The translations under genes were made by a program, and so were the position numbers. From positions 96,001-160,000 of IMG/VR virus record IMGVR_UViG_3300035696_000007: a stretch of DNA of 64,000 bases; one strand, given 5' to 3'. Positions 2,122 to 42,302 of this stretch are shown here, piece after piece (within the stretch, counting starts at the first letter, position 1; every line of letters starts with the position of its first letter). The notes below the pieces were generated by a model. The model was not told where the DNA came from. It was given only the letters and a program-made list of their open reading frames with translations, and did not search any database. The stretch is from a virus.

Positions 2122-4557
2122 GTGGCCCTACCTCTGAACGCCGGGCAGCTTTGCACCACGCTGGACAGCCTCAAGATCCTGGCGATCTCGACGCTGTCCA
2201 AGCTGACCGGGAGGCTGTACGCGCTGCGCAGGCTGGCGAGCCTGCTGGAGCTGGCGGGCGACTCGATCACGCTGCCCGACCCGTCGACGCTCATCCCGTA
2301 CAACCTCGTCGACCCGACCCTCTACAACCAGATCGCGGACGCCTGCCCGGGGCTGCTGCCGCCGCTCGACCCCTTCAACGTCGGGGTGAACCTGCTGCGC
2401 CAGATGGTGCGGGACGCCTACGCCAACCTGGCGGACTCGCTGCTGGAGCACCCCTACGAGAAGCTGATGGGCCTCGACAGCGAGCTGAACGGGCTGGTCA
2501 ACCAGGCGGCCACGGGGCTGGCCAACGCGGCCATCCCGCCGCTCTCGGCGCTCGACTGCGTCACGGCCGTCTGCGCGATCGGCGGCGTGGGCGACCCGTC
2601 GGCCCCGTCCGTCATCCCTTCGGTCTCGCCCGACCTGATCGCCGGAGTCGCGCAAGCCATCCAGACCGGCGGGGCGTCCTCGATCACCGCCTTGAGCGCC
2701 TCGCAGAAGCAGAAAGCTGCGCAGATCAAGGCCCTCATCGCGCAGGTCAAGGAGCTGGCGGCCGGGCCAGCCACAGCAACGGCCGCTACGACCGTTTCCT
2801 CGGCGGGCACGACGGCGCCCGCCACCAAGGCGACGCCGGCCCAGCGCACCGCGGCCATCCAGCAGATGGGCGTCGTGACGACCGGCACCCCCGGCGGCGG
2901 GGGCTTCGGCGCCGGCAATCAAGGGCCGCAGGGGGCGCAAGGGGCGCAGGGGGCGCAAGGAACCTCCGGCTTCCTCGGGGGCACGGGCCCGCAGGGCCCG
3001 CAAGGCTACCAGGGCGCGTTCGGCGGCCCGCAGGGCATCACCGGCCCGCAGGGGCCGCCCGGCACCCAAGGCCCCCGCGGCTTCCAAGGCAGCCCCGGCC
3101 CCCAGGGCAACCAGGGCAACCAGGGCAACCAGGGGAACCAGGGCTACCAGGGCTACCAGGGCAGCACCGGGCCGCAAGGGTTCCAGGGCTACCAGGGTTC
3201 CACGGGCACCCAAGGGAAGACGGGCGCCCAGGGCTCCACGGGGGTTGGGACGCAGGGGGCCCAGGGCGCGACCGGCCCGCAGGGGGCGTTCGGGGGGCCG
3301 CAAGGCGCGACCGGCCCGCAGGGGTACCAGGGCTACCAAGGGAGCACGGGCGCCCAGGGCACCCCAGGCACCGGGGCCCAGGGCTACCAGGGCCTCCAGG
3401 GCAGCACGGGCGCCCAGGGGTACCAGGGCAGCACCGGAACCCAAGGCGGCACCGGCACCCAGGGCTACCAGGGCAGCACGGGCCCGCAGGGCGCGTTCGG
3501 GGGGCCGCAGGGCGACACGGGGCCCCAGGGCTACCAGGGCCTCCAGGGGAGCACCGGCCCGCAGGGCAACCAAGGCTTTCAAGGCCTGCAAGGCTCGACC
3601 GGAACCCAGGGGTACCAGGGCCTCCAGGGGAGCACCGGGGCGCAGGGGTACCAAGGCCTGCAGGGCAGCACCGGCTCCCAAGGGAACCAGGGCTACCAGG
3701 GCAAGACCGGGAACCAAGGCTACCAGGGCAGCACGGGCACGCAAGGCTACCAGGGCTATCAGGGGAGCACCGGCGTCCAGGGCTACCAGGGCGTCCCAGG
3801 CACCGGGGCGCAGGGGTACCAGGGCTACCAGGGGAGCACCGGGGCGCAAGGGTACCAGGGCGGCACCGGAACCCAGGGGTACCAGGGCCTGCAAGGCGAC
3901 ACAGGGCCACAGGGCGCGTTCGGGGGGCCGCAGGGAGCCACGGGGGCGCAGGGCTACCAGGGCCTCCAGGGCAGCACCGGCCCGCAGGGCGGAACGGGGG
4001 CCCAAGGCTACCAGGGCCTCCAAGGGGCGACCGGAACCCAGGGGTACCAGGGCCTCCAGGGCAGCACGGGCGCCCAAGGCTACCAGGGCCTCCAGGGGGG
4101 CACGGGCGTCCAGGGCGCGACCGGCACGCAAGGGTACCAGGGCGTCGTTGGCTCGACGGGGAGCCAGGGCGTCCAGGGCAGCACGGGCGCCCAGGGATTC
4201 CAGGGCAGCACGGGCCCGCAGGGCTACCAGGGGAGCACCGGCGTCCAGGGCTACCAGGGCTACCAGGGCGGCACCGGCACGCAGGGGGCGTCGGGCACGG
4301 GGGCGCAGGGGCCGCAAGGCGACACCGGGCCGCAAGGCTCCTACGGGGGGCCCCAGGGCGCGACCGGCGCCCAGGGCTTCCAGGGCGACACCGGCCCGCA
4401 GGGCGCGTCCGGGTTCCTCGGGGGCACCGGCCCGCAGGGCGCCACCGGCCCGCAGGGCTACCAGGGCGGCGCGGGCGCCACGGGCCCGCAGGGGGCGCAG
4501 GGGGCGCAAGGCAGCGGGGCGGTCCTCGATTGGGTCTCCGTCTGGCTGATTACTTAA
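2122..4557 (+). CDS. Collagen-like virion fibre protein
   Basis: About 530 aa of G-X-Y repeats ([12 protein letters not shown]) after a helical N-domain; TAATTA-N4-GTG. Confidence 0.85.
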
Positions 4558-4918: not shown

Positions 4919-5539
4919 ATGCTCCGAATAATCACCCCGGACCCCTCCGCCGGGTGCATGACGCCCGGCGCCTACGGCTTCAACCAGCTCCCGGTCGTGT
5001 CCGGCTTCGGCACGACCTCGGCGGTCGAGGTCGGCGACGATTTCCAGCAAATAATGTCGCTCGTGGGCGCCGGCACCTACCCGTGGAACATGCCCAACGT
5101 GCCCGCCTTCGACAACATCGTGGGCAGCACCCCGTGGGGCGGCCCGGGCATCTTCGCCGCCGTCGACTACGCCCAGGCCACCGACGACTTCCAGGGCGAC
5201 CTCAGCATCGCCGGCACGCTCTACGACGTCTACGGCGGGAGCTACTGGCTGGCCGACGGCTCGCTGGCCAGCGTCGACTACACCTACGCGAACGACGATT
5301 TCCAGGCCGACGCGGTCGGCACGTACGCCACGCTCTCCGGCGGCTACAACTGGGGCGGCACGATCTTCTCCACCGGCACGCTCTTCACCAACGACTATCC
5401 GGTCGTGGACAACGACGACTTCCAGTCCTACCAGACCAACCCCGGCGTCGGCGGCGTGGTGCCGTCGGGCGGGACCATCACCACGCTGGCCGGCGGCAAC
5501 GGCTGGGCCGCCGGCGGCACCTTCGTCTCCCCAACCTAA
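4919..5539 (+). CDS. Putative virion structural protein with DDFQ repeats
   Basis: Four DDFQ..(L)xGGxxW units; Gly/Thr/Asp rich. Confidence 0.6.
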   Translation: MLRIITPDPSAGCMTPGAYGFNQLPVVSGFGTTSAVEVGDDFQQIMSLVGAGTYPWNMPNVPAFDNIVGSTPWGGPGIFAAVDYAQATDDFQGDLSIAGTLYDVYGGSYWLADGSLASVDYTYANDDFQADAVGTYATLSGGYNWGGTIFSTGTLFTNDYPVVDNDDFQSYQTNPGVGGVVPSGGTITTLAGGNGWAAGGTFVSPT

Positions 5540-6295: not shown

Positions 6296-7030
6296 ATGGG
6301 CGAAATCCAACAGATGTCGGTCACGCAGGACGTGGTGCTGATCCAGGAGCCGCGCGAGTACTACCTCCGGGCGCCCCCGTGGACCACCTGGACGGAGGTG
6401 CGGCTGGCGATGATGTTCACGATGGTCCCCACGGGGAACTTCTCGTCCTACGCGCCCGCCGAGACCATCGGGCCCCTCACCAACCCCAGCGCCACCTACC
6501 TGGACTGGTTCTGCTGGGGCCTGAAGGACACCTCCAGCAACCTGCCGGGCGCCGCCGGCAGCCAGTTCATCGGCCTGGGCTGGGGGAGCGGCGGGGTCGC
6601 CATCGCCCTGGCCAGCAACCTGTCCGGCAACGGGAACATCGGGAGCGGCGGCGCCCAGATCTACATCGCCCAGAACGGGGCGACGAACGTCGCGACCAGC
6701 ACCGACGCCGGCTTCGTGCTCAGCTTCCCGCAGTACTCCCCGACCGCCTACTGCTTCACCAACGGGCTGAGGTTCGTCGTGAACAACGCGGGCCTGTCCA
6801 CCCAGACGGTCACCGCCAGCTACTACGCCAACATCGCCAGCCTCGCCGGCGACTACAGCGTCGCCAAGCTGCGCACGGACACCTTCAACACCTCATATTC
6901 GGGCTCCAAAACCCTCACCTGGAACAGCGGCGGCGTGGCGCTGGCGCTGCCGTGCTGCTGGTACCTGCGGATGCCCTTCAACCTCAGCCGCGCCAGGATC
7001 TCGACGATGGGCATGTGGAAGGTCTCCTAG
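6296..7030 (+). CDS. Putative fibre-tip/receptor-binding protein, paralog 2
   Basis: Starts MGEIQQMSVTQD after TACTTA; paralog motifs. Confidence 0.6.
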   Translation: MGEIQQMSVTQDVVLIQEPREYYLRAPPWTTWTEVRLAMMFTMVPTGNFSSYAPAETIGPLTNPSATYLDWFCWGLKDTSSNLPGAAGSQFIGLGWGSGGVAIALASNLSGNGNIGSGGAQIYIAQNGATNVATSTDAGFVLSFPQYSPTAYCFTNGLRFVVNNAGLSTQTVTASYYANIASLAGDYSVAKLRTDTFNTSYSGSKTLTWNSGGVALALPCCWYLRMPFNLSRARISTMGMWKVS

Positions 7031-36950: not shown

Positions 36951-37799
36951 ATGCACTCGAAACGAGCCCCATACTCAAAGCTGGAAACCCTGACCCCGAA
37001 ACTCGCAGACCACCTCCTAGAAACCCTCACCCACGGCCCGCTCAACATCGACCAGGTATCCTTCCTGGCGACCGAACTGAGGGAGAATCGGTGGAGGAAG
37101 TTCCCGGGGGCCATAATGATCGCCGACGCCGAGCGCGTGCTGGTCGACGGCGCTCACCGGTGCGGGGCTTGCTCCCTCACCGGAATCTCGTTCCCGGTGT
37201 ACATCTGGCACAACGTGCCGGCGGACACCAACCCCGACCTCGGCATAAGGGGCCACTCCCTGGCCGAGGCGATGAAGCTCAACAAGAACATCGTGTCTGC
37301 CGCCCGCCAGCTCGCCGCCGCGTGCTGCAAGCACCACCCCGTCAAGATGAGCATGGGATCGACCCTGATAGTGCTGGACGAGTTCCAGGGCGACATCGAG
37401 CGCGTGACCAAGGCCATGGCGGGCTTCAGGGCGGGGAAGCACGCGTGGGTCGTCGGCGCGCTCGCGCTGGCCTGCGGGGCGGACCCGGGGACGATCCCGT
37501 TCATCGAGGCCTTCGGCTCGGGCGAAGGCCTCCACCGGGGCGACCCCGCCAAGGCGGCGCGGCAGTGGCTCACCAACAACGAGCCGAGCGGCCACGACCA
37601 CAACCACGGGGCGGCCGTCGAGACACTGCTCATCGCCGCCTACCACGCCGCGATGGGCGAGCAGATCACCGTGCTGCGGCGCAGCGACCAGGGGCTCAAC
37701 TACTTCCTCGGCAGGAAAGCCGGGTTCGTCAAGGCCCTCCGCTCGGCGCTCACGCTCCTGCTGCCCCGCCCGCGCACCCAGCCCGTAGTTAGGGCGTGA
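36951..37799 (+). CDS. ParB/DGQHR-like domain protein
   Basis: LVDGAHRC motif; TPKLA..LL N-terminus. Confidence 0.6.
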   Translation: MHSKRAPYSKLETLTPKLADHLLETLTHGPLNIDQVSFLATELRENRWRKFPGAIMIADAERVLVDGAHRCGACSLTGISFPVYIWHNVPADTNPDLGIRGHSLAEAMKLNKNIVSAARQLAAACCKHHPVKMSMGSTLIVLDEFQGDIERVTKAMAGFRAGKHAWVVGALALACGADPGTIPFIEAFGSGEGLHRGDPAKAARQWLTNNEPSGHDHNHGAAVETLLIAAYHAAMGEQITVLRRSDQGLNYFLGRKAGFVKALRSALTLLLPRPRTQPVVRA

Positions 37800-38302
37800 C
37801 CGACTACAGGAAGCTTGTGCGCAGGTTCCCGGGGGACGACGACGCCTCGTTCGAGGCGAGGGCGGCGCGCGCCGGGGACCTGGGGATCGAGGACATGGAG
37901 GACGGCGACCTCACGCCCGCGGGCCTCAAGGCCAAGGCCGAGGCGGTCCGCGAGATCGGGGGCGACTTCTGGGACGAGTACCGGGGGATGCACCCGGGGC
38001 TGCGCGAGCGGGCACGCCACGAGTCCCGCGCCAAGCGGGAGCTGGAGGGGCTCCTCGGCGAGTCGGCCCTGGTGTGGACCGAGATGCTCACCAAGGCGTG
38101 GGCCGAGGGCAAGCGGTTCCTCATGCTGCCGCAGCGCGGCGCGGCCGAGCTCCTGGCCACGAGGGAGGAGGCCCTGCGCCTCGGCAAGAACTTCGAAAGC
38201 GTCGCCATCCCCTACGCCGTCTTCTCCGTGCGCGAGCTGGTCGGGGCGACCCACCAGGCGGCCTACAACCAGCCCATGACGGCGCGCGGCTCCCCGCAAT
38301 GA
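37796..38302 (+). CDS. Small late protein
   Basis: TAGTTA-N4-GTG; ESRAKRELEGLLGES. Confidence 0.6.
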   Translation: MTDYRKLVRRFPGDDDASFEARAARAGDLGIEDMEDGDLTPAGLKAKAEAVREIGGDFWDEYRGMHPGLRERARHESRAKRELEGLLGESALVWTEMLTKAWAEGKRFLMLPQRGAAELLATREEALRLGKNFESVAIPYAVFSVRELVGATHQAAYNQPMTARGSPQ

Positions 38303-38811
38303 ACCCCCCTGACAGCAGAGCGCGCCGGGCGGTGGACCGCCTCGTGGAGGCGGAGGCCGTCACGGCGATGGACAAGGCGACCGCCAAGCGCATCCACCAC
38401 GAGGCGGACGACCTGATGAGGACGCTGGCCGAGGACCTAGGGATGCAGCACGCCGGCAAGGGCGGCAGCTACAGCTAGGACACCTTCACCTATCGCTGCG
38501 AGTTCAAGCTCAAGACGGTCGGGGGCGTCCCCGCCGAGGAGGCGAGGTTCAAGCGCGAGTGCTACCTCTTCGACTTGGAGCCGTCCGACTACGGGGCGGT
38601 GATCACCATCAACCGCGAGCAGTGGAGGCTGACGGGGCTGCAGCCGAACCGGTCGAAGTTCCCGCTGGTGTTCACCCGCGTCAGCGACGGCAAGCAGCTG
38701 CTCTTCACCGACGACCAGGTCGACAGAGTGAAGGCGGCCCGCAAGGGCGGGGCGCCGCCACCACCAGCAGCACCGATGAAGCCCTTTGCGCCGCGGGCGC
38801 CGGAGACATAG
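38299..38811 (+). pseudogene. Late gene interrupted by in-frame TAG (38476-38478)
   Basis: Same frame continues GGSYS*DTFTYRCEFKLK..; N-term RARRAVDRLVE. Confidence 0.6.
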
Positions 38812-39137
38812 TCAGACCGTCGGGTCCTCGAAGTCCTCGAACGGGTTCCCCTCGCACATGACGGCGAGCGGGACGGGGGTTATGGTGCCGTCGCGGTTGC
38901 GCTGCATCGCGGCGACGAGCGCCACGGGCTTCTTGTCCGCCTTTCGGACGGCGGAGATCAGCCCGAGGTCCCCCTCCTTGGCGGCCCGGAGGAGCATGCT
39001 GAAGTTCTTGCGGTAGCCGACGTAAGAGGGGGCGGGGTGGGCCCCTCCCCGGCCGGGGCGTCGCCCCGCTGCGCCCCCTCGTCAGCTTCCAGCAGCTTGT
39101 CGACAATCTTTCTGGCCCGCTCGGCGTCTCGGTTCAT
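38812..39137 (-). pseudogene. Late gene with internal frameshift
   Basis: MNRDAERARKIVDKLLEADE frame shifts (-1) into ..YVGYRKNFSMLLRAAKEGDL frame between about 39020 and 39081. Confidence 0.55.
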
Positions 39138-39189
39138 GCCCTAACTACAGCCCCTACGTTGTAAGCAAAAAGAGTTATGACCAGAAAGG

Positions 39190-39593
39190 GGTGCGGAGAC
39201 AGCTCACCGCGGCTCGGCGAGGTGTCGTTGTCGGCAGACACCTCGCCCTTAGTTGCGCGCGTGCGCCCGCGCGAGGGCGGGCGCCGCAGGTGGGCGGGGT
39301 GGCGCATAAGCCGGCTGAGGGGCCGGCTGGAACGGTTGCCGCCGGTCTTCCCATGACGCGGCCCGTGCTCGCCCAACTCCAAATGAGGCGGCGGCCATCC
39401 GGCCCGCATGGTGCGTTCGAACCGGTTTCATCTGCCCCATCCGATATGGCTCAATCCTGACGGCTAGCGGCTAAGACAAGGAGCACGCCGGGGTGTCAGG
39501 CTCGATGAACACGTATGGCTTAGAGTTGCGGCACGCGCGCAAGCGCAACGAACAACGGCCCGTGCGGAGGCGACGGCACCCCGGCGGCAACCG
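39190..39593 (-). ncRNA. Candidate large structured ncRNA (unknown family)
   Basis: Gene-free 0.45 kb with 12-13-bp long-range helices and several hairpins; GTTCT motif at 39597-39601. Confidence 0.55.
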
Positions 39594-39618
39594 GTAAGAA
39601 CTGCAAACCGCGGCCAAG

Positions 39619-40326
39619 TCACCTGCCGGACGGCGACCACGGCTGGAGCCCCGGGTAGGGGCGCCCGATGGTCTTAACCACCGCGCCGGGCCAGCGCTCG
39701 TGCAACAGATGCGCGATGACCGAGTCCAGATGCTCGGCCTCGACGCCGGCGGGAACCATGATGTTCTGGCGGTTCACCCCGACCTCCGCGCCGACGTCCA
39801 CGGTGAACTCGACGCCATAGGTCTTCGGGCCCTGGTCGAAATCGGCCTCCTCCAAGCCCCCCTCCACCTCTTCCTCCTCCGGGTGCTCGGCCTCCCAGCC
39901 CTCCAAGAAGTCGCCCCAGCTCGTCCACAGGAACTCCTCGGTCTCGCTGTCCAACAGGAGCGTGTTCTCGTAGGTGTCGCCCATGTTGACGTACGTGGCG
40001 ATGATGTCCCCGTAGTAGCCGTCCACCCAGGCGTCCTCCTTGTGGATCGCCTCGACGCCGTAGCCCTCCAGGACCTCGTTGGCGGCCTCAAGGATCTTCT
40101 CCTCGTCCGAAGGCTCGTTGTAGCACTGGCCGACCCAGTCCTGCACAGACTTGAAGGACATCGGATCGAGCTCGCCTCTCACCAGCTGTCGGATCTGCTC
40201 AGGTGCACCAGCCAGGCCTAGGTCACCCCGCGGAACAGGGGCACCGCCGCCCGGACCAGCGAGACGGTCTCTCGCGGCCATGCTCACCTCGACCAACGAA
40301 TCCAGTATGCTGCGGGCGTTGCTCAT
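39619..40326 (-). CDS. Acidic late protein with ILDSLVE motif
   Basis: TAGTTA-N4-ATG; YVNMGDTYENTLL motif. Confidence 0.65.
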   Translation of the reverse strand: MSNARSILDSLVEVSMAARDRLAGPGGGAPVPRGDLGLAGAPEQIRQLVRGELDPMSFKSVQDWVGQCYNEPSDEEKILEAANEVLEGYGVEAIHKEDAWVDGYYGDIIATYVNMGDTYENTLLLDSETEEFLWTSWGDFLEGWEAEHPEEEEVEGGLEEADFDQGPKTYGVEFTVDVGAEVGVNRQNIMVPAGVEAEHLDSVIAHLLHERWPGAVVKTIGRPYPGLQPWSPSGR

Positions 40327-40333
40327 GGCCTAA

Positions 40334-42055
40334 CTACTTGTCCAAGTCGGCTGCCTCATATCCGGCGCCGATGGAGTCCGGCCCCAAACAAGGCCAGAAG
40401 AAGCTGAACCCGCGCGTCTTCTCCAGCTCGGCGACGAGGGCCAGCGACCCGCGGCGCATCGCCGAGGTCTGCCGGTCAATGAAGAGGGTCACGTGCGCCT
40501 CGTTCTCCCCGGCAGGCTTCCTGCGGATGAAGCGCCCGATCATCTGCCGGGCGACGTCCGGCCCGGCCACGTAGTCGGCGATGACCCCGGCCTTGAGCTC
40601 CGGCAGCGACACGCCCTCCTTGACGAGCGGCGAGACGAGGACGGCCCCCGGCGTGCCGACCAGCCAGGCAAAGGCCTCGTCGCGGGTCTTCGAAGTGTCC
40701 TCGCCGGTGAGGGTGCGCACCTCGGCCAGCCCGGCCTCGGCCAACAGGGTCTCGATGATGAGGACGTGCAAGGTACGGGTAGCGATGACCAGGGTCGGCC
40801 AACCCTTGGAGACATAATGCCTGACCCACTCGACGACCAGCCGGTTGCGATCCCTGAAGCGGACGACGCCCTCATCATGCTGCCGATGGAGGAGGCACCA
40901 GCGGCTCTCCACCTCGAACTCGCCGCCCTCGTCCAGCTCGATGAGGTGCTTGTTGATGACCACGGTGGGCTCCTTCCTGGCGTTGCGCACGATCACGCCG
41001 CGCTCGTCGCGCTCGTAGACCGGCCCGACGTAGGTGCCCCGCTTCCAACCCTCGCCCATCAGGCACCAGGCCTTGGTGCCCTTCTTCGCCCGGTTGGGCA
41101 AATCCTGGAAGCGGTTGTTCCACTCCGGGCAGTCGACGAGGTAGAGGATGGGCTTGGCGACGCGCCCGACCTCGATGAGCGGCGCGAGAGTCGTGCGATG
41201 GCGGGCGGGCCCGAAGGCACCCTCGACGGCCAGCCCGCGCATCTTGTCCTGCGGGCGGCTGCTGTCCTTGACCGAGGCAGAGGCCCCGAAGCGGAAGAAG
41301 GTGGGGATGTCGCCGACGACCTTCCGGGTCGCCGGGGCGCCGACGTGGTGCACCTCGTCGAACAGGAGGCCGGAGAAGGTCTTGTACCAGCCGGAGACTA
41401 AGAACCGGTCATGGTTACGGTTGAGCGAGGCCATCGTGGCCACGACCATGTCCCGCCCCGTCTCCGACTTCACCCCGCCGCCGAACTGCGACACCCTCAG
41501 GGAGGGTGCTAGCTTCCTAGCCTCCTTGACAACCTGGCGGACGAGCCGCTCGGAGGGCGTGACGTAGAGGAACCGGGCGTCGGGGAAGCGCCGGCGGATG
41601 AGGAGGGCGACGGAGAAGAGGACGGCGGTCTTGCCGCCGGAGGTGGTGATCTCGACGGTGCCGAAGGCGTTGCGGCAAAGCTCGGCCACGCAAGTCCGCT
41701 GGTCGAGGTCGAGGGTCAGGCCCTTGAGCAAGTCGGGCGGCACGTCGTCGACGGTGATCCCGGCGAGCGGCTTGCGCCGCTCTTTCCATTCGACCTCGAT
41801 GTCCTCCTGCGCGGCGGCCGCCAGCAGCCGCTCCTGGTGGCCCCGCTGCACCCACGCCTGGTCGCGGGCGACGCGGTGCACCAGCGTTAGCGTGCCATCC
41901 CAGCCACTCTTACCGTCGGTGCGCTTCCACAGCTGGTACTTCGGCGATCGCCAGTACTCCGGCGGGTGGAACCGAAGGCGCTCCACGAGGGCGTCCAGCT
42001 CGCCCCTCTCGCCCTTGAGCCAGACCCGCACGTTGGATTCTTCGAGCGTAACCAT
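40334..42055 (-). CDS. uvsW: SF2 DNA helicase, UvsW-like
   Basis: TTSGGKT Walker A, FDEVHH, EGVSLPEL, QMIGRFIR; N-term FHPPEY..PKY..WDG. Confidence 0.85.
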   Translation of the reverse strand: MVTLEESNVRVWLKGERGELDALVERLRFHPPEYWRSPKYQLWKRTDGKSGWDGTLTLVHRVARDQAWVQRGHQERLLAAAAQEDIEVEWKERRKPLAGITVDDVPPDLLKGLTLDLDQRTCVAELCRNAFGTVEITTSGGKTAVLFSVALLIRRRFPDARFLYVTPSERLVRQVVKEARKLAPSLRVSQFGGGVKSETGRDMVVATMASLNRNHDRFLVSGWYKTFSGLLFDEVHHVGAPATRKVVGDIPTFFRFGASASVKDSSRPQDKMRGLAVEGAFGPARHRTTLAPLIEVGRVAKPILYLVDCPEWNNRFQDLPNRAKKGTKAWCLMGEGWKRGTYVGPVYERDERGVIVRNARKEPTVVINKHLIELDEGGEFEVESRWCLLHRQHDEGVVRFRDRNRLVVEWVRHYVSKGWPTLVIATRTLHVLIIETLLAEAGLAEVRTLTGEDTSKTRDEAFAWLVGTPGAVLVSPLVKEGVSLPELKAGVIADYVAGPDVARQMIGRFIRRKPAGENEAHVTLFIDRQTSAMRRGSLALVAELEKTRGFSFFWPCLGPDSIGAGYEAADLDK

Positions 42056-42056
42056 A

Positions 42057-42302
42057 TCAGTCGGAGGCCGGGATGTTCTCCCAGCAGCTCTCGCCGCGCC
42101 TCCGCTGCCAGACCGCCCCTGGCTTCCTTGTCGCGAGGGCAACCTGCTTCGCATCCGTGGCCACGCCGCCGTGGGTGTCCATGTCGTACTGCGAGACACC
42201 CATCAGCCGGAACGCCGCGGTCTTCGTCCGGGCCGCGACGATCCTCAACCCCTCGGGGCACCGCACATAGTAGACTTGGATGGCATCCCTGCTGACGTTC
42301 AT
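42057..42302 (-). CDS. Hypothetical protein
   Basis: GGAG RBS; TTTGTTTAC upstream. Confidence 0.5.
   Translation of the reverse strand: MNVSRDAIQVYYVRCPEGLRIVAARTKTAAFRLMGVSQYDMDTHGGVATDAKQVALATRKPGAVWQRRRGESCWENIPASD

What the first reader, a model, noticed from the sequence alone, without database searches (positions are those of the whole stretch)
39190..39601. About 400-nt gene-free element with crossing long-range helices: candidate novel ncRNA
Perfect complements: 39333-39345/39581-39593 (13 bp) and 39253-39264/39531-39542 (12 bp), which cross each other as a pseudoknot. A competing helix forms at about 39486-39495/39578-39587. Nested pairs TAAGCC/GGCTTA and CGTGCTC/GAGCACG occur, with local hairpins at 39216-39247, 39263-39284 and 39309-39328. 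The GTTCT motif (same GTTCTTACCGG as groES) would start a minus-strand RNA right at the terminal helix. I do not recognise the family; a replication origin is an alternative.
Basis: partly seen in the sequence, partly recalled or inferred. Interest (0 to 1): 0.7.

Follow-up and report, generated by a model that had tools for sequence, protein, structure and literature searches.

The report
New structured RNA in peat phages
The gene-free stretch is real. It most likely encodes a previously undescribed structured non-coding RNA shared by a few related large soil and peat phages, but only its local hairpins, not the proposed long-range pseudoknot, are backed by comparison with relatives.

Summary
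Window 39138-39618 is non-coding: no GC3 periodicity and no Pfam or PHROG hit. The 13-bp and 12-bp perfect complements are exact, cross each other, and are not expected by chance (0 of 300 dinucleotide shuffles gave two helices of 12 bp or more).

I found three homologous copies in related uncultivated phages whose helicases are 62-67% identical: L008, L164 and L165. Each lies in a non-coding gap of the variable region beyond the helicase. Their neighbours differ, and one copy is inverted. All four start at a (G/A)TTCT expression motif and share a roughly 150-nt 3' domain (window 39335-39181, minus strand).

That domain has four hairpins, H0 to H3. All four hairpins form in every copy: 118 Watson-Crick pairs, 6 G-U pairs and 0 A-C pairs, with several compensatory changes. 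A CCUC loop and a C-rich linker stay invariant and unpaired.

The long-range helices lie in a 5' part that does not align with the relatives. The 12-bp helix also overlaps conserved H1.

There is no Rfam, tRNA or tmRNA match and no RNA-seq data.

Best reading: a self-contained phage ncRNA gene of a new family, function unknown. The evidence is only four sequences.

The parts
39597..39601 (-). GTTCT expression motif at the 5' edge of the element, within GCAGTTCTTACCGG.
   Evidence: All four copies keep (A/T)CGC(A/T)(G/A)TTCT(A/T) at their 5' edge. GTTCT followed by 7-8 nt and a start codon precedes about 9 GC3-supported genes in the window, including groES. Here there is no ATG at that offset.
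39336..39596 (-). 5' domain, specific to the window.
   Evidence: An HMM of the 5' domains of L008, L164 and L165 finds nothing here. There is no coding signal. It carries an excess of long perfect complements.
39581..39593 (-). 5' arm of the 13-bp long-range helix. Its partner is 39333-39345.
   Evidence: Perfect complement. Not conserved in the homologues.
39333..39345 (-). 3' arm of the 13-bp long-range helix, just upstream of H0.
39531..39542 (-). 5' arm of the 12-bp long-range helix. Its partner is 39253-39264.
   Evidence: Perfect complement. The partner overlaps conserved H1.
39181..39335 (-). Conserved 3' domain, made up of H0, the C-rich linker, H1, H2, GAG, H3 and a U-rich tail.
   Evidence: A two-sequence HMM (window plus L008) found L164 at E = 2.5e-17. 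A three-sequence HMM found L165 at E = 1.4e-25. The alignment has 77% mean column identity. The covariance model scores 127-154 bits on its own four training copies.
39309..39328 (-). H0: a 7-bp stem (AGCCGGC/GCCGGCU) with loop CCCUCA. CCUC is invariant in all copies; the other three have CCUCC.
   Evidence: The stem sequence differs between copies while pairing is kept (GC/AU and CG/GC swaps).
39288..39308 (-). Invariant unpaired C-rich linker, UAUGCGCC-ACCC..CCCA..UGC.
   Evidence: Invariant columns in alignments A7 and A8.
39259..39287 (-). H1: an 11-bp stem with one bulged base.
   Evidence: Present in all four copies. Position 8 is C-G, G-C or A-U, and position 10 is G-C or C-G.
39216..39247 (-). 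H2: a perfect 11-bp stem, followed by the invariant CGCCGAG.
   Evidence: A-U here corresponds to C-G in the other three copies.
39193..39210 (-). H3: a short stem (GCGG/CCGC) closing a 10-nt loop that contains GCUGUCU.
   Evidence: The stem sequence differs in every copy but always pairs. This is the weakest of the four.
39142..39147 (-). TAGTTA motif 4 nt before the ATG (39137) of the next gene. It marks the 3' limit of the element.
   Evidence: 16 of the 30 TANTTA sites in the window sit exactly 4 nt before a GC3-supported start codon.

Best explanation
The gap holds a self-contained gene for a structured non-coding RNA, read from the window's minus strand.

**Proposed transcript (inferred).** Transcription starts a few bases after the GTTCT motif, near 39590. 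That motif sits at a fixed distance before the start codons of a set of genes of this phage. The RNA is about 400 nt here and about 330-360 nt in the relatives. It ends in a conserved 150-nt domain of four hairpins (H0 to H3) at about 39335-39181.

**Proposed working surface (inferred).** The parts that never change are unpaired and C-rich: CCUC(C) in the H0 loop and the linker UAUGCGCC-ACCCGCCCCA. I take these as the working surface. My best guess is base-pairing with G-rich, Shine-Dalgarno-like partners, as actinobacterial 6C sRNA does with its C-rich loops, or alternatively a protein-binding platform.

**Shown:** non-coding status, homology in four phages, conserved hairpins with compensatory changes, strand-specific wobble pairs, and independence from neighbouring genes.

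**Inferred:** that it is transcribed, its ends, and its mode of action.

The window-specific 5' part with the long perfect complements may add lineage-specific long-range or alternative folds. That is untested.
For: 1. **Non-coding.** The GC3 periodicity is lost, the internal ORFs have no family hits, and the copies differ by 1-nt indels inside the conserved block.
2. **Homologues.**
   - The L008 block was first seen by blastn and then aligned at 78-80% identity.
   - L164 was found at E = 2.5e-17 by an HMM that did not include it, and L165 likewise at E = 1.4e-25.
   - The 3' domain has 77% mean column identity. The helicase genes of the same phages are only 68-71% identical at the DNA level, and the flanking genes are unrelated.
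3. **Structure.**
   - H0 to H3 form in all four copies: 124 pairs, of which 118 are Watson-Crick, 6 are G-U and none is a mismatch.
   - On the model-fitted alignment, 86% of cells pair against 80 +/- 1.5% in shuffles (0 of 500 reach the observed value). Five pairs change on both sides (3 of 500). With partners slid by 1-3 columns only 24-59% pair.
4. **Strand.** There are 6 G-U pairs and 0 A-C pairs, so the stems hold only on this strand.
5. **Self-contained unit.**
   - The copy in L164 is inverted relative to the helicase.
   - In L008 and L164 the gene on the 5' side points away from the element, so no upstream co-directional gene reads into it.
   - In L165 a perfect bidirectional terminator follows directly.
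   - All copies keep the (G/A)TTCT motif at the 5' edge. That motif sits 7-8 nt before the start codons of about 9 real genes, yet three of the four copies have no start codon at that offset.
6. **New family.** No Rfam family, tRNA or tmRNA matches.
Against: - There is no expression evidence of any kind.
- There are only four sequences, and L164 and L165 are close to each other, so the covariation counts are few and not independent. The tool's own notes warn that related sequences can beat shuffles without any structure.
- G+C-rich sequence forms hairpins easily. Whole-element folding energy is not better than shuffles. For the 3' domain alone, z is -2.6 in the window but only -0.4 in L008.
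- The window has no clear terminator.
- The 5' domain of the window does not align with the others, so the RNA's extent here is uncertain.
- Single-stranded DNA hairpins would give the same pairing pattern.
- The proposed C-rich seed function is by analogy only. A scan of the window for complementary targets found nothing longer than 13 nt.
Confidence: 0.6

Rival explanations
1. It is a DNA-level element: a replication origin, a recombination or packaging site, or a small mobile (MITE-like) module. On this reading the hairpins act in DNA, as cruciforms or single-stranded DNA.
For: - It lies next to the replication helicase in all four phages.
- Its position and orientation differ between relatives, as expected for a mobile module.
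- L164 has 8-bp terminal inverted repeats ATGTAAAC/GTTTACAT at the block edges, and L165 has 6 bp.
- L008 has an A+T-rich stretch with perfect palindromes right after it.
Against: - There are no iterons.
- There is no GC-skew turn.
- The genome record holds a single copy.
- The 6 G-U against 0 A-C asymmetry rules out a double-stranded cruciform, though not single-stranded DNA.
- The inverted ends are short and overlap TTTACA-type promoter boxes of the neighbouring genes.
- No transposase or recombinase lies nearby.
Confidence: 0.15
2. It is a cis-acting part of a longer mRNA. It could be a structured leader, a processive antiterminator of the HK022 put type for the genes downstream, or a terminator and stabiliser for the gene upstream.
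For: - In the window it lies between two genes on the same strand.
- Strong G+C-rich hairpins without U tracts can terminate transcription in high-GC hosts (general knowledge).
- Co-directional genes follow at 43-180 nt in the window, L008 and L164.
Against: - The downstream genes are unrelated to each other and carry their own TANTTA or GTTCT start signals.
- In L165 a terminator separates the element from whatever follows.
- In L008 and L164 no co-directional gene lies upstream, so it is not a 3' UTR there.
Confidence: 0.13
3. It is a neutral remnant, such as a decayed gene or spacer. On this reading the complements and hairpins are by-products of G+C-rich sequence, and the similarity to relatives reflects recent common descent.
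For: - Folding energy is not exceptional.
- The family is tiny and limited to close relatives. It was not detected in phages whose helicase is 35-44% identical.
Against: - The block is more conserved than the coding DNA, while the sequence around it is unalignable.
- Substitutions inside the stems keep pairing: 124 of 124 pairs hold.
- The excess of perfect complements beats all 300 shuffles.
Confidence: 0.07
4. It encodes one or more very small proteins, for example the 39-codon TTG frame that starts 6 nt after GTTCT, matched by a 46-codon ATG frame in L008.
For: - GTTCT normally precedes a start codon.
- L008 has ATG at about the right distance.
- The window has a TTG one base early, opening a 39-codon frame.
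Against: - The two peptides are unrelated.
- L164 and L165 have no start codon at the expected offset.
- There are no family hits.
- The conserved part lies downstream of these frames and is interrupted by frame-breaking indels.
Confidence: 0.05

Closest known systems
6C sRNA of Actinobacteria (Rfam RF01066)
   Same: Both are hairpins that present conserved C-rich unpaired segments in a high-GC setting. 6C binds several mRNAs through its C-rich loops (PMC6486639, title and abstract). This is the functional analogy I lean on.
   Different: The Rfam scans gave no hit even at E up to 10. This element is three to four times longer, has four hairpins plus a 5' domain, and is encoded by a phage. Part of the C-rich conserved sequence lies in a linker rather than a loop.
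Large phage-associated structured RNAs of unknown function (GOLLD, ROOL)
   Same: Both are large, structured, phage-borne RNAs with no known function, found by comparative analysis of long intergenic regions.
   Different: Neither was reported in the Rfam release 15 scans. Those RNAs are larger and, from my own recall, usually sit near tRNA genes. This element lies beside a helicase, about 20 kb from the phage's tRNA array.
HK022 put RNA (processive antitermination)
   Same: Both have tandem hairpins just downstream of a phage promoter, with conserved structure.
   Different: From my own recall, put is about 70 nt with two hairpins and acts in cis on the downstream operon. Here the downstream genes differ, and one copy is followed by a terminator.
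Origin transcripts (ColE1 RNA II; T4 oriF/oriG promoter-plus-unwinding-element origins)
   Same: Both involve a promoter followed by a structured non-coding transcript close to replication genes.
   Different: From my own recall, such primers rely on G-rich RNA pairing with the template and on an A+T-rich unwinding element. The conserved unpaired parts here are C-rich. No A+T-rich element is conserved and there is no skew signal.

Membership tests
Any Rfam release 15 family | A covariance-model match at the gathering score, or at least a suggestive E-value. | tested here: not met
   The window had only tRNA hits at the gathering score. The only hit at E up to 10 in 38900-39900 was an 8-E-value hit to a plant-virus element outside the gap. 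The homologous copies in L164, L165 and L008 had no hit at E up to 5.
6C sRNA (RF01066) | A match to the family model, plus two hairpins whose loops each carry a run of C residues. | tested here: not met
   There is no model match. Only the H0 loop is C-rich (CCUCC). The other conserved C-rich part is a linker.
tmRNA / tRNA-like | A tRNA-like domain formed by the two ends, plus a tag reading frame. | tested here: not met
   ARAGORN found nothing in 38900-39800. No Rfam tmRNA model matched.
Group I / II intron | A match to the intron core models, with flanking exons that form one gene. | tested here: not met
   There is no Rfam hit. The downstream gene has its own TAGTTA-N4-ATG start, and the neighbours differ in every homologue.
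Intrinsic terminator of the upstream gene | A G+C-rich hairpin followed by a U tract, downstream of a co-directional gene. | tested here: not met
   No terminator-like site was found in 38700-40000. In L008 and L164 no co-directional gene lies upstream.
Replication origin | Iterons or initiator boxes, an A+T-rich unwinding element, and a skew turn. | tested here: inconclusive
   There are no repeated boxes and no skew turn. Skew is a weak test on a phage fragment, and no initiator is known for this phage.
Conserved structured ncRNA (generic criteria) | Homologues in several genomes, stems kept through compensatory changes, and evidence for one strand. | tested here: met
   There are four copies. 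All 124 of 124 pairs are kept, with 6 G-U and 0 A-C. Five pairs change on both sides, and the shuffle and slide controls score lower. The sample is small.
Conserved structured ncRNA (generic criteria) | A detectable transcript with defined ends. | not testable with these tools
   No listed run that holds this DNA is on record as RNA. All runs laid on the region were DNA contigs.

The most novel reading that the evidence does not exclude
The RNA is a phage-made mimic of the anti-Shine-Dalgarno sequence. Its invariant CCUCC loop and C-rich linker would soak up or mask the G-rich ribosome-binding sites of host mRNAs, or dock on the translation machinery. The phage's own messages would be unaffected, because most of them start 4-8 nt after a promoter-like box and appear to lack a Shine-Dalgarno sequence. 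That would be an RNA-based host shut-off matched to a leaderless phage transcriptome.
Probability: 0.07. Interest if true: 0.85.

Novelty: new variant of a known kind. Interest (0 to 1): 0.5.

Why it matters
Large environmental phages are known to carry tRNAs and a few odd RNAs, but very few of their long non-coding regions have been explained. This stretch is a clean candidate for a new phage RNA family. It is conserved more strongly than the neighbouring genes, it moves and flips as a unit, and it displays invariant C-rich single strands. In a phage whose genes mostly lack ribosome-binding sites and which already carries other unusual RNAs elsewhere (noted by earlier readers), it could lead to a new way for a phage to control translation or RNA metabolism. 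If it turns out instead to be an origin or a mobile module, it would still mark the plastic region next to the helicase in this phage group.

Tried and rejected
**Expression**
- No RNA holder was listed for this DNA.
- The four runs laid on 37000-42000 were DNA contigs of the same clone and showed no substitutions, so they gave no microdiversity to use.

**Same-species contigs**
- L002 and L003 are 99.99-100% identical to the window, so they are uninformative.

**Homologue searches that found nothing new**
- The 235-aa and helicase proteins used singly in IMG/VR.
- 29 IMG/VR loci with helicases 35-44% identical, each with 10 kb of flank, searched by nhmmer and by the covariance model.
- Five whole IMG/VR records of 45-238 kb.
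- GenBank phages.
- Pattern scans of IMG/VR, of JGI metagenomes and of GTDB genomes. These gave only chance matches, filtered out.
- The contigs of P0009, P0006 and P0093 have gaps in the right place, but no DNA is held for them.

**Rejected hits**
- L019 9822-9973 (E = 4.8) lies in the 3' end of a 374-aa coding frame.
- L185 9700-9814 scores only 4.2 bits.
- L039 is coding sequence.

**Long-range helices**
- I looked for a closing helix between the 5' end and the stretch before H0 in the homologues. There was no consistent signal.
- No equivalents of 8 bp or more were found in the homologues.

**5' domain**
- A consensus fold of L008, L164 and L165 gave no convincing shared structure beyond one hairpin, GGCGGC..GUCUCU..GCCGCC.

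**Targets**
- No complement longer than 13 nt to the 3' domain exists elsewhere in the window.

**Coding remnants**
- Proteins of the relatives' neighbouring genes do not match the gap.

Full report
**Setting.** The window is the reverse strand of an 82.8-kb IMG/VR virus record. It has 67.5% G+C, and the same DNA is found in peat metagenomes. Identical DNA sits on contigs of up to 182-254 kb, so this is a large phage.

Genes here show a very strong third-position G+C signal of 0.9-1.0. That signal disappears between about 39000 and 39600.

On the minus strand the order is:
- an SF2 helicase, 40334-42199;
- a 235-aa protein with no family match, 39619-40326;
- the gap, 39138-39618;
- a small gene starting at 39137, which meets plus-strand genes at 38811.

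**The observation.**
- Both long perfect complements are exact and cross each other. The competing 10-bp helix is one base off the stated coordinates.
- Dinucleotide shuffles of 39190-39601 give on average 0.26 perfect helices of 10 bp or more (4 observed) and 0.027 of 12 bp or more (2 observed). None of 300 shuffles had two. The complements are therefore not chance.
- Minimum free energy of the whole region is ordinary on either strand.
- Rfam, ARAGORN, Pfam and PHROGs find nothing in the gap.

**Relatives.** Same-species contigs are identical, and the runs holding this DNA show no variants in the gap. I therefore went through the helicase, which has many relatives.

- *L008.* In this contig (helicase 62% identical), blastn and then alignment showed a block of about 150 nt, 78-80% identical to window 39335-39181 on the minus strand, inside a 515-nt gap.
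- *L164.* An HMM of those two copies found a third in L164 (helicase cluster 67% identical) at E = 2.5e-17. It is on the strand opposite to the helicase.
- *L165.* A three-sequence HMM found a fourth in L165 (helicase cluster 65% identical) at E = 1.4e-25.

The helicase genes of these phages are only 68-71% identical to the window at the DNA level. The genes next to the element are unrelated between phages. The block is therefore kept more tightly than its surroundings.

| Copy | Gene on the 5' side | What follows |
|---|---|---|
| L008 | points away from the element | co-directional gene 180 nt downstream |
| L164 | points away from the element | co-directional gene about 120 nt downstream |
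| L165 | a sugar-synthesis cassette | a perfect bidirectional terminator (5412-5452) |

The element behaves as a unit of its own.

**Anatomy.**
- All four copies begin with (A/T)CGC(A/T)(G/A)TTCT(A/T).
- In the window, GTTCT followed by 7-8 nt precedes the start codons of about nine GC3-supported genes, including groES. This confirms that the motif is a real expression signal.
- At the element only L008 has an ATG at that distance. That fits a transcript that is not translated.
- The 5' domain is about 185 nt in the relatives. It is 85% identical between L164 and L165 over its first 120 nt and partly alignable with L008.
- The window's 5' domain is about 290 nt and is not detectably homologous.
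- The 3' domain is shared by all four: H0, the linker UAUGCGCC-ACCC..CCCA..UGC, H1, H2, the invariant CGCCGAG, H3, and a U-rich tail.

**Structure evidence.**
- Each of the four hairpins can be written for each copy with no mismatch: 118 Watson-Crick and 6 G-U pairs out of 124.
- *Compensatory changes.*
  - In H0, G-C alternates with A-U, and C-G with G-C.
  - In H1, position 8 is C-G, G-C or A-U, and position 10 is G-C or C-G.
  - In H2, A-U alternates with C-G.
  - In H3, every copy has a different stem.
- I built a covariance model from the MAFFT alignment, refitted the four copies to it and counted the pairs.

| Measure | Observed | Shuffles | Shuffles reaching observed |
|---|---|---|---|
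| Cells that pair | 86.1% | 79.9 +/- 1.5% | 0 of 500 |
| Pairs changed on both sides | 5 | 2.0 | 3 of 500 |
| Covariation score | 0.198 | 0.098 | 0 of 500 |

- With partners slid by 1-3 columns, only 24-59% of cells pair.
- That alignment still misplaces the window's H0 and L008's H1, so it understates the fit.
- The 6 G-U against 0 A-C asymmetry means the stems hold only on this strand. That points to RNA, or to single-stranded DNA, of the window's minus strand.
- The weaknesses are plain: four sequences, two of them close, and G+C-rich DNA that folds readily.

**The long-range helices.**
- Three of their four arms lie in the window-specific 5' domain.
- The fourth arm (39264-39253) overlaps the 3' strand of conserved H1 (39270-39259).
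- I found no equivalent closing helix in the homologues.
- They may be a lineage-specific feature or an alternative fold. Their excess over chance is real, but comparison gives them no support.

**What it is not.**
- It is not an intrinsic terminator of the upstream gene.
- It is not a leader of one particular gene, because the downstream genes differ, carry their own start signals, and in L165 lie beyond a terminator.
- It does not look like an origin by repeats or skew, although that test is weak.
- It is not coding.
- The family seems confined to this narrow clade. Phages with helicases 35-44% identical, GenBank phages, IMG/VR and GTDB genomes gave no further copy.

**Mechanism.** I commit to an independently transcribed phage ncRNA (confidence about 0.6). 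The invariant unpaired C-rich parts, namely the CCUC(C) loop and the linker, are the likely contact surface. By analogy with 6C sRNA (PMC6486639), they would pair with G-rich sites. This last step is inference only. A scan for targets within the window was empty, and the host is unknown.

**Earlier scan notes.** This stretch was also noted in the overlapping window of the same genome (e1-5734550). No look-alike in other genomes had been recorded.

Noticed in passing
window 38812-39137 (minus): The small gene after the element is split into two frames, offset by 2 nt, in the window. One contig of run X5 lacks 2 nt at 39060, and that version reads as one intact 107-aa frame. Its N-terminus, MNRDAERARKIVDKLLE, carries the peptide that other notes describe as a tag. 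Its C-terminal part has a weak, sub-threshold Pfam DUF6117 match (E = 1.7e-4, 21.9 bits against a cut-off of 27). This could be a polymorphism, an assembly error in a G/C run, or a programmed frameshift.
   Followed up: partly
window, whole: TA[ACGT]TTA occurs 30 times on both strands. Sixteen of these sit exactly 4 nt before the start codon of a GC3-supported reading frame, including the 235-aa gene beside the element (motif at 40336-40331). This is a strong, position-fixed start signal with no room for a Shine-Dalgarno sequence.
   Followed up: partly
window 52958, 54344, 50254, 46337, 62188, 61637, 2072 and others: GTTCTnA followed by 5 nt and ATG precedes a second set of genes, including groES. 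Some sites are preceded by GAAC, which makes GAAC-N-GTTC palindromes that look like operators (48996, 50254; also L008 6978-6994 and 7306-7323, and L164 about 4215-4232).
   Followed up: partly
L165 5412-5452: A perfect bidirectional intrinsic terminator, GCUAAAAACCCGG..CCCGGGUUUUUAGC, lies directly after the element.
   Followed up: no
L008 7340-7375: An A+T-rich stretch after the element holds an 18-bp perfect palindrome, TAATTTGTGCACAAATTA. It could be an operator or an origin-like site.
   Followed up: no
L158 about 950-1120 and L162 about 6700-6850 (unrelated IMG/VR contigs): These contigs carry arrays of ATGCGCC(A) and GGCGCA boxes every 20-40 nt. They were picked up only because they share the ATGCGCC..CCACCTGCGGCGC pattern. 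They could be iterons or a coding repeat.
   Followed up: no
region after the helicase in L008, L009/L165, L164 and the window: The segment downstream of the helicase is a hot spot of gene turnover. DUF7178 genes, a three-gene sugar-nucleotide cassette (L165 2257-5080) and unrelated small genes replace each other between phages whose helicases are 62-67% identical to the window's.
   Followed up: partly
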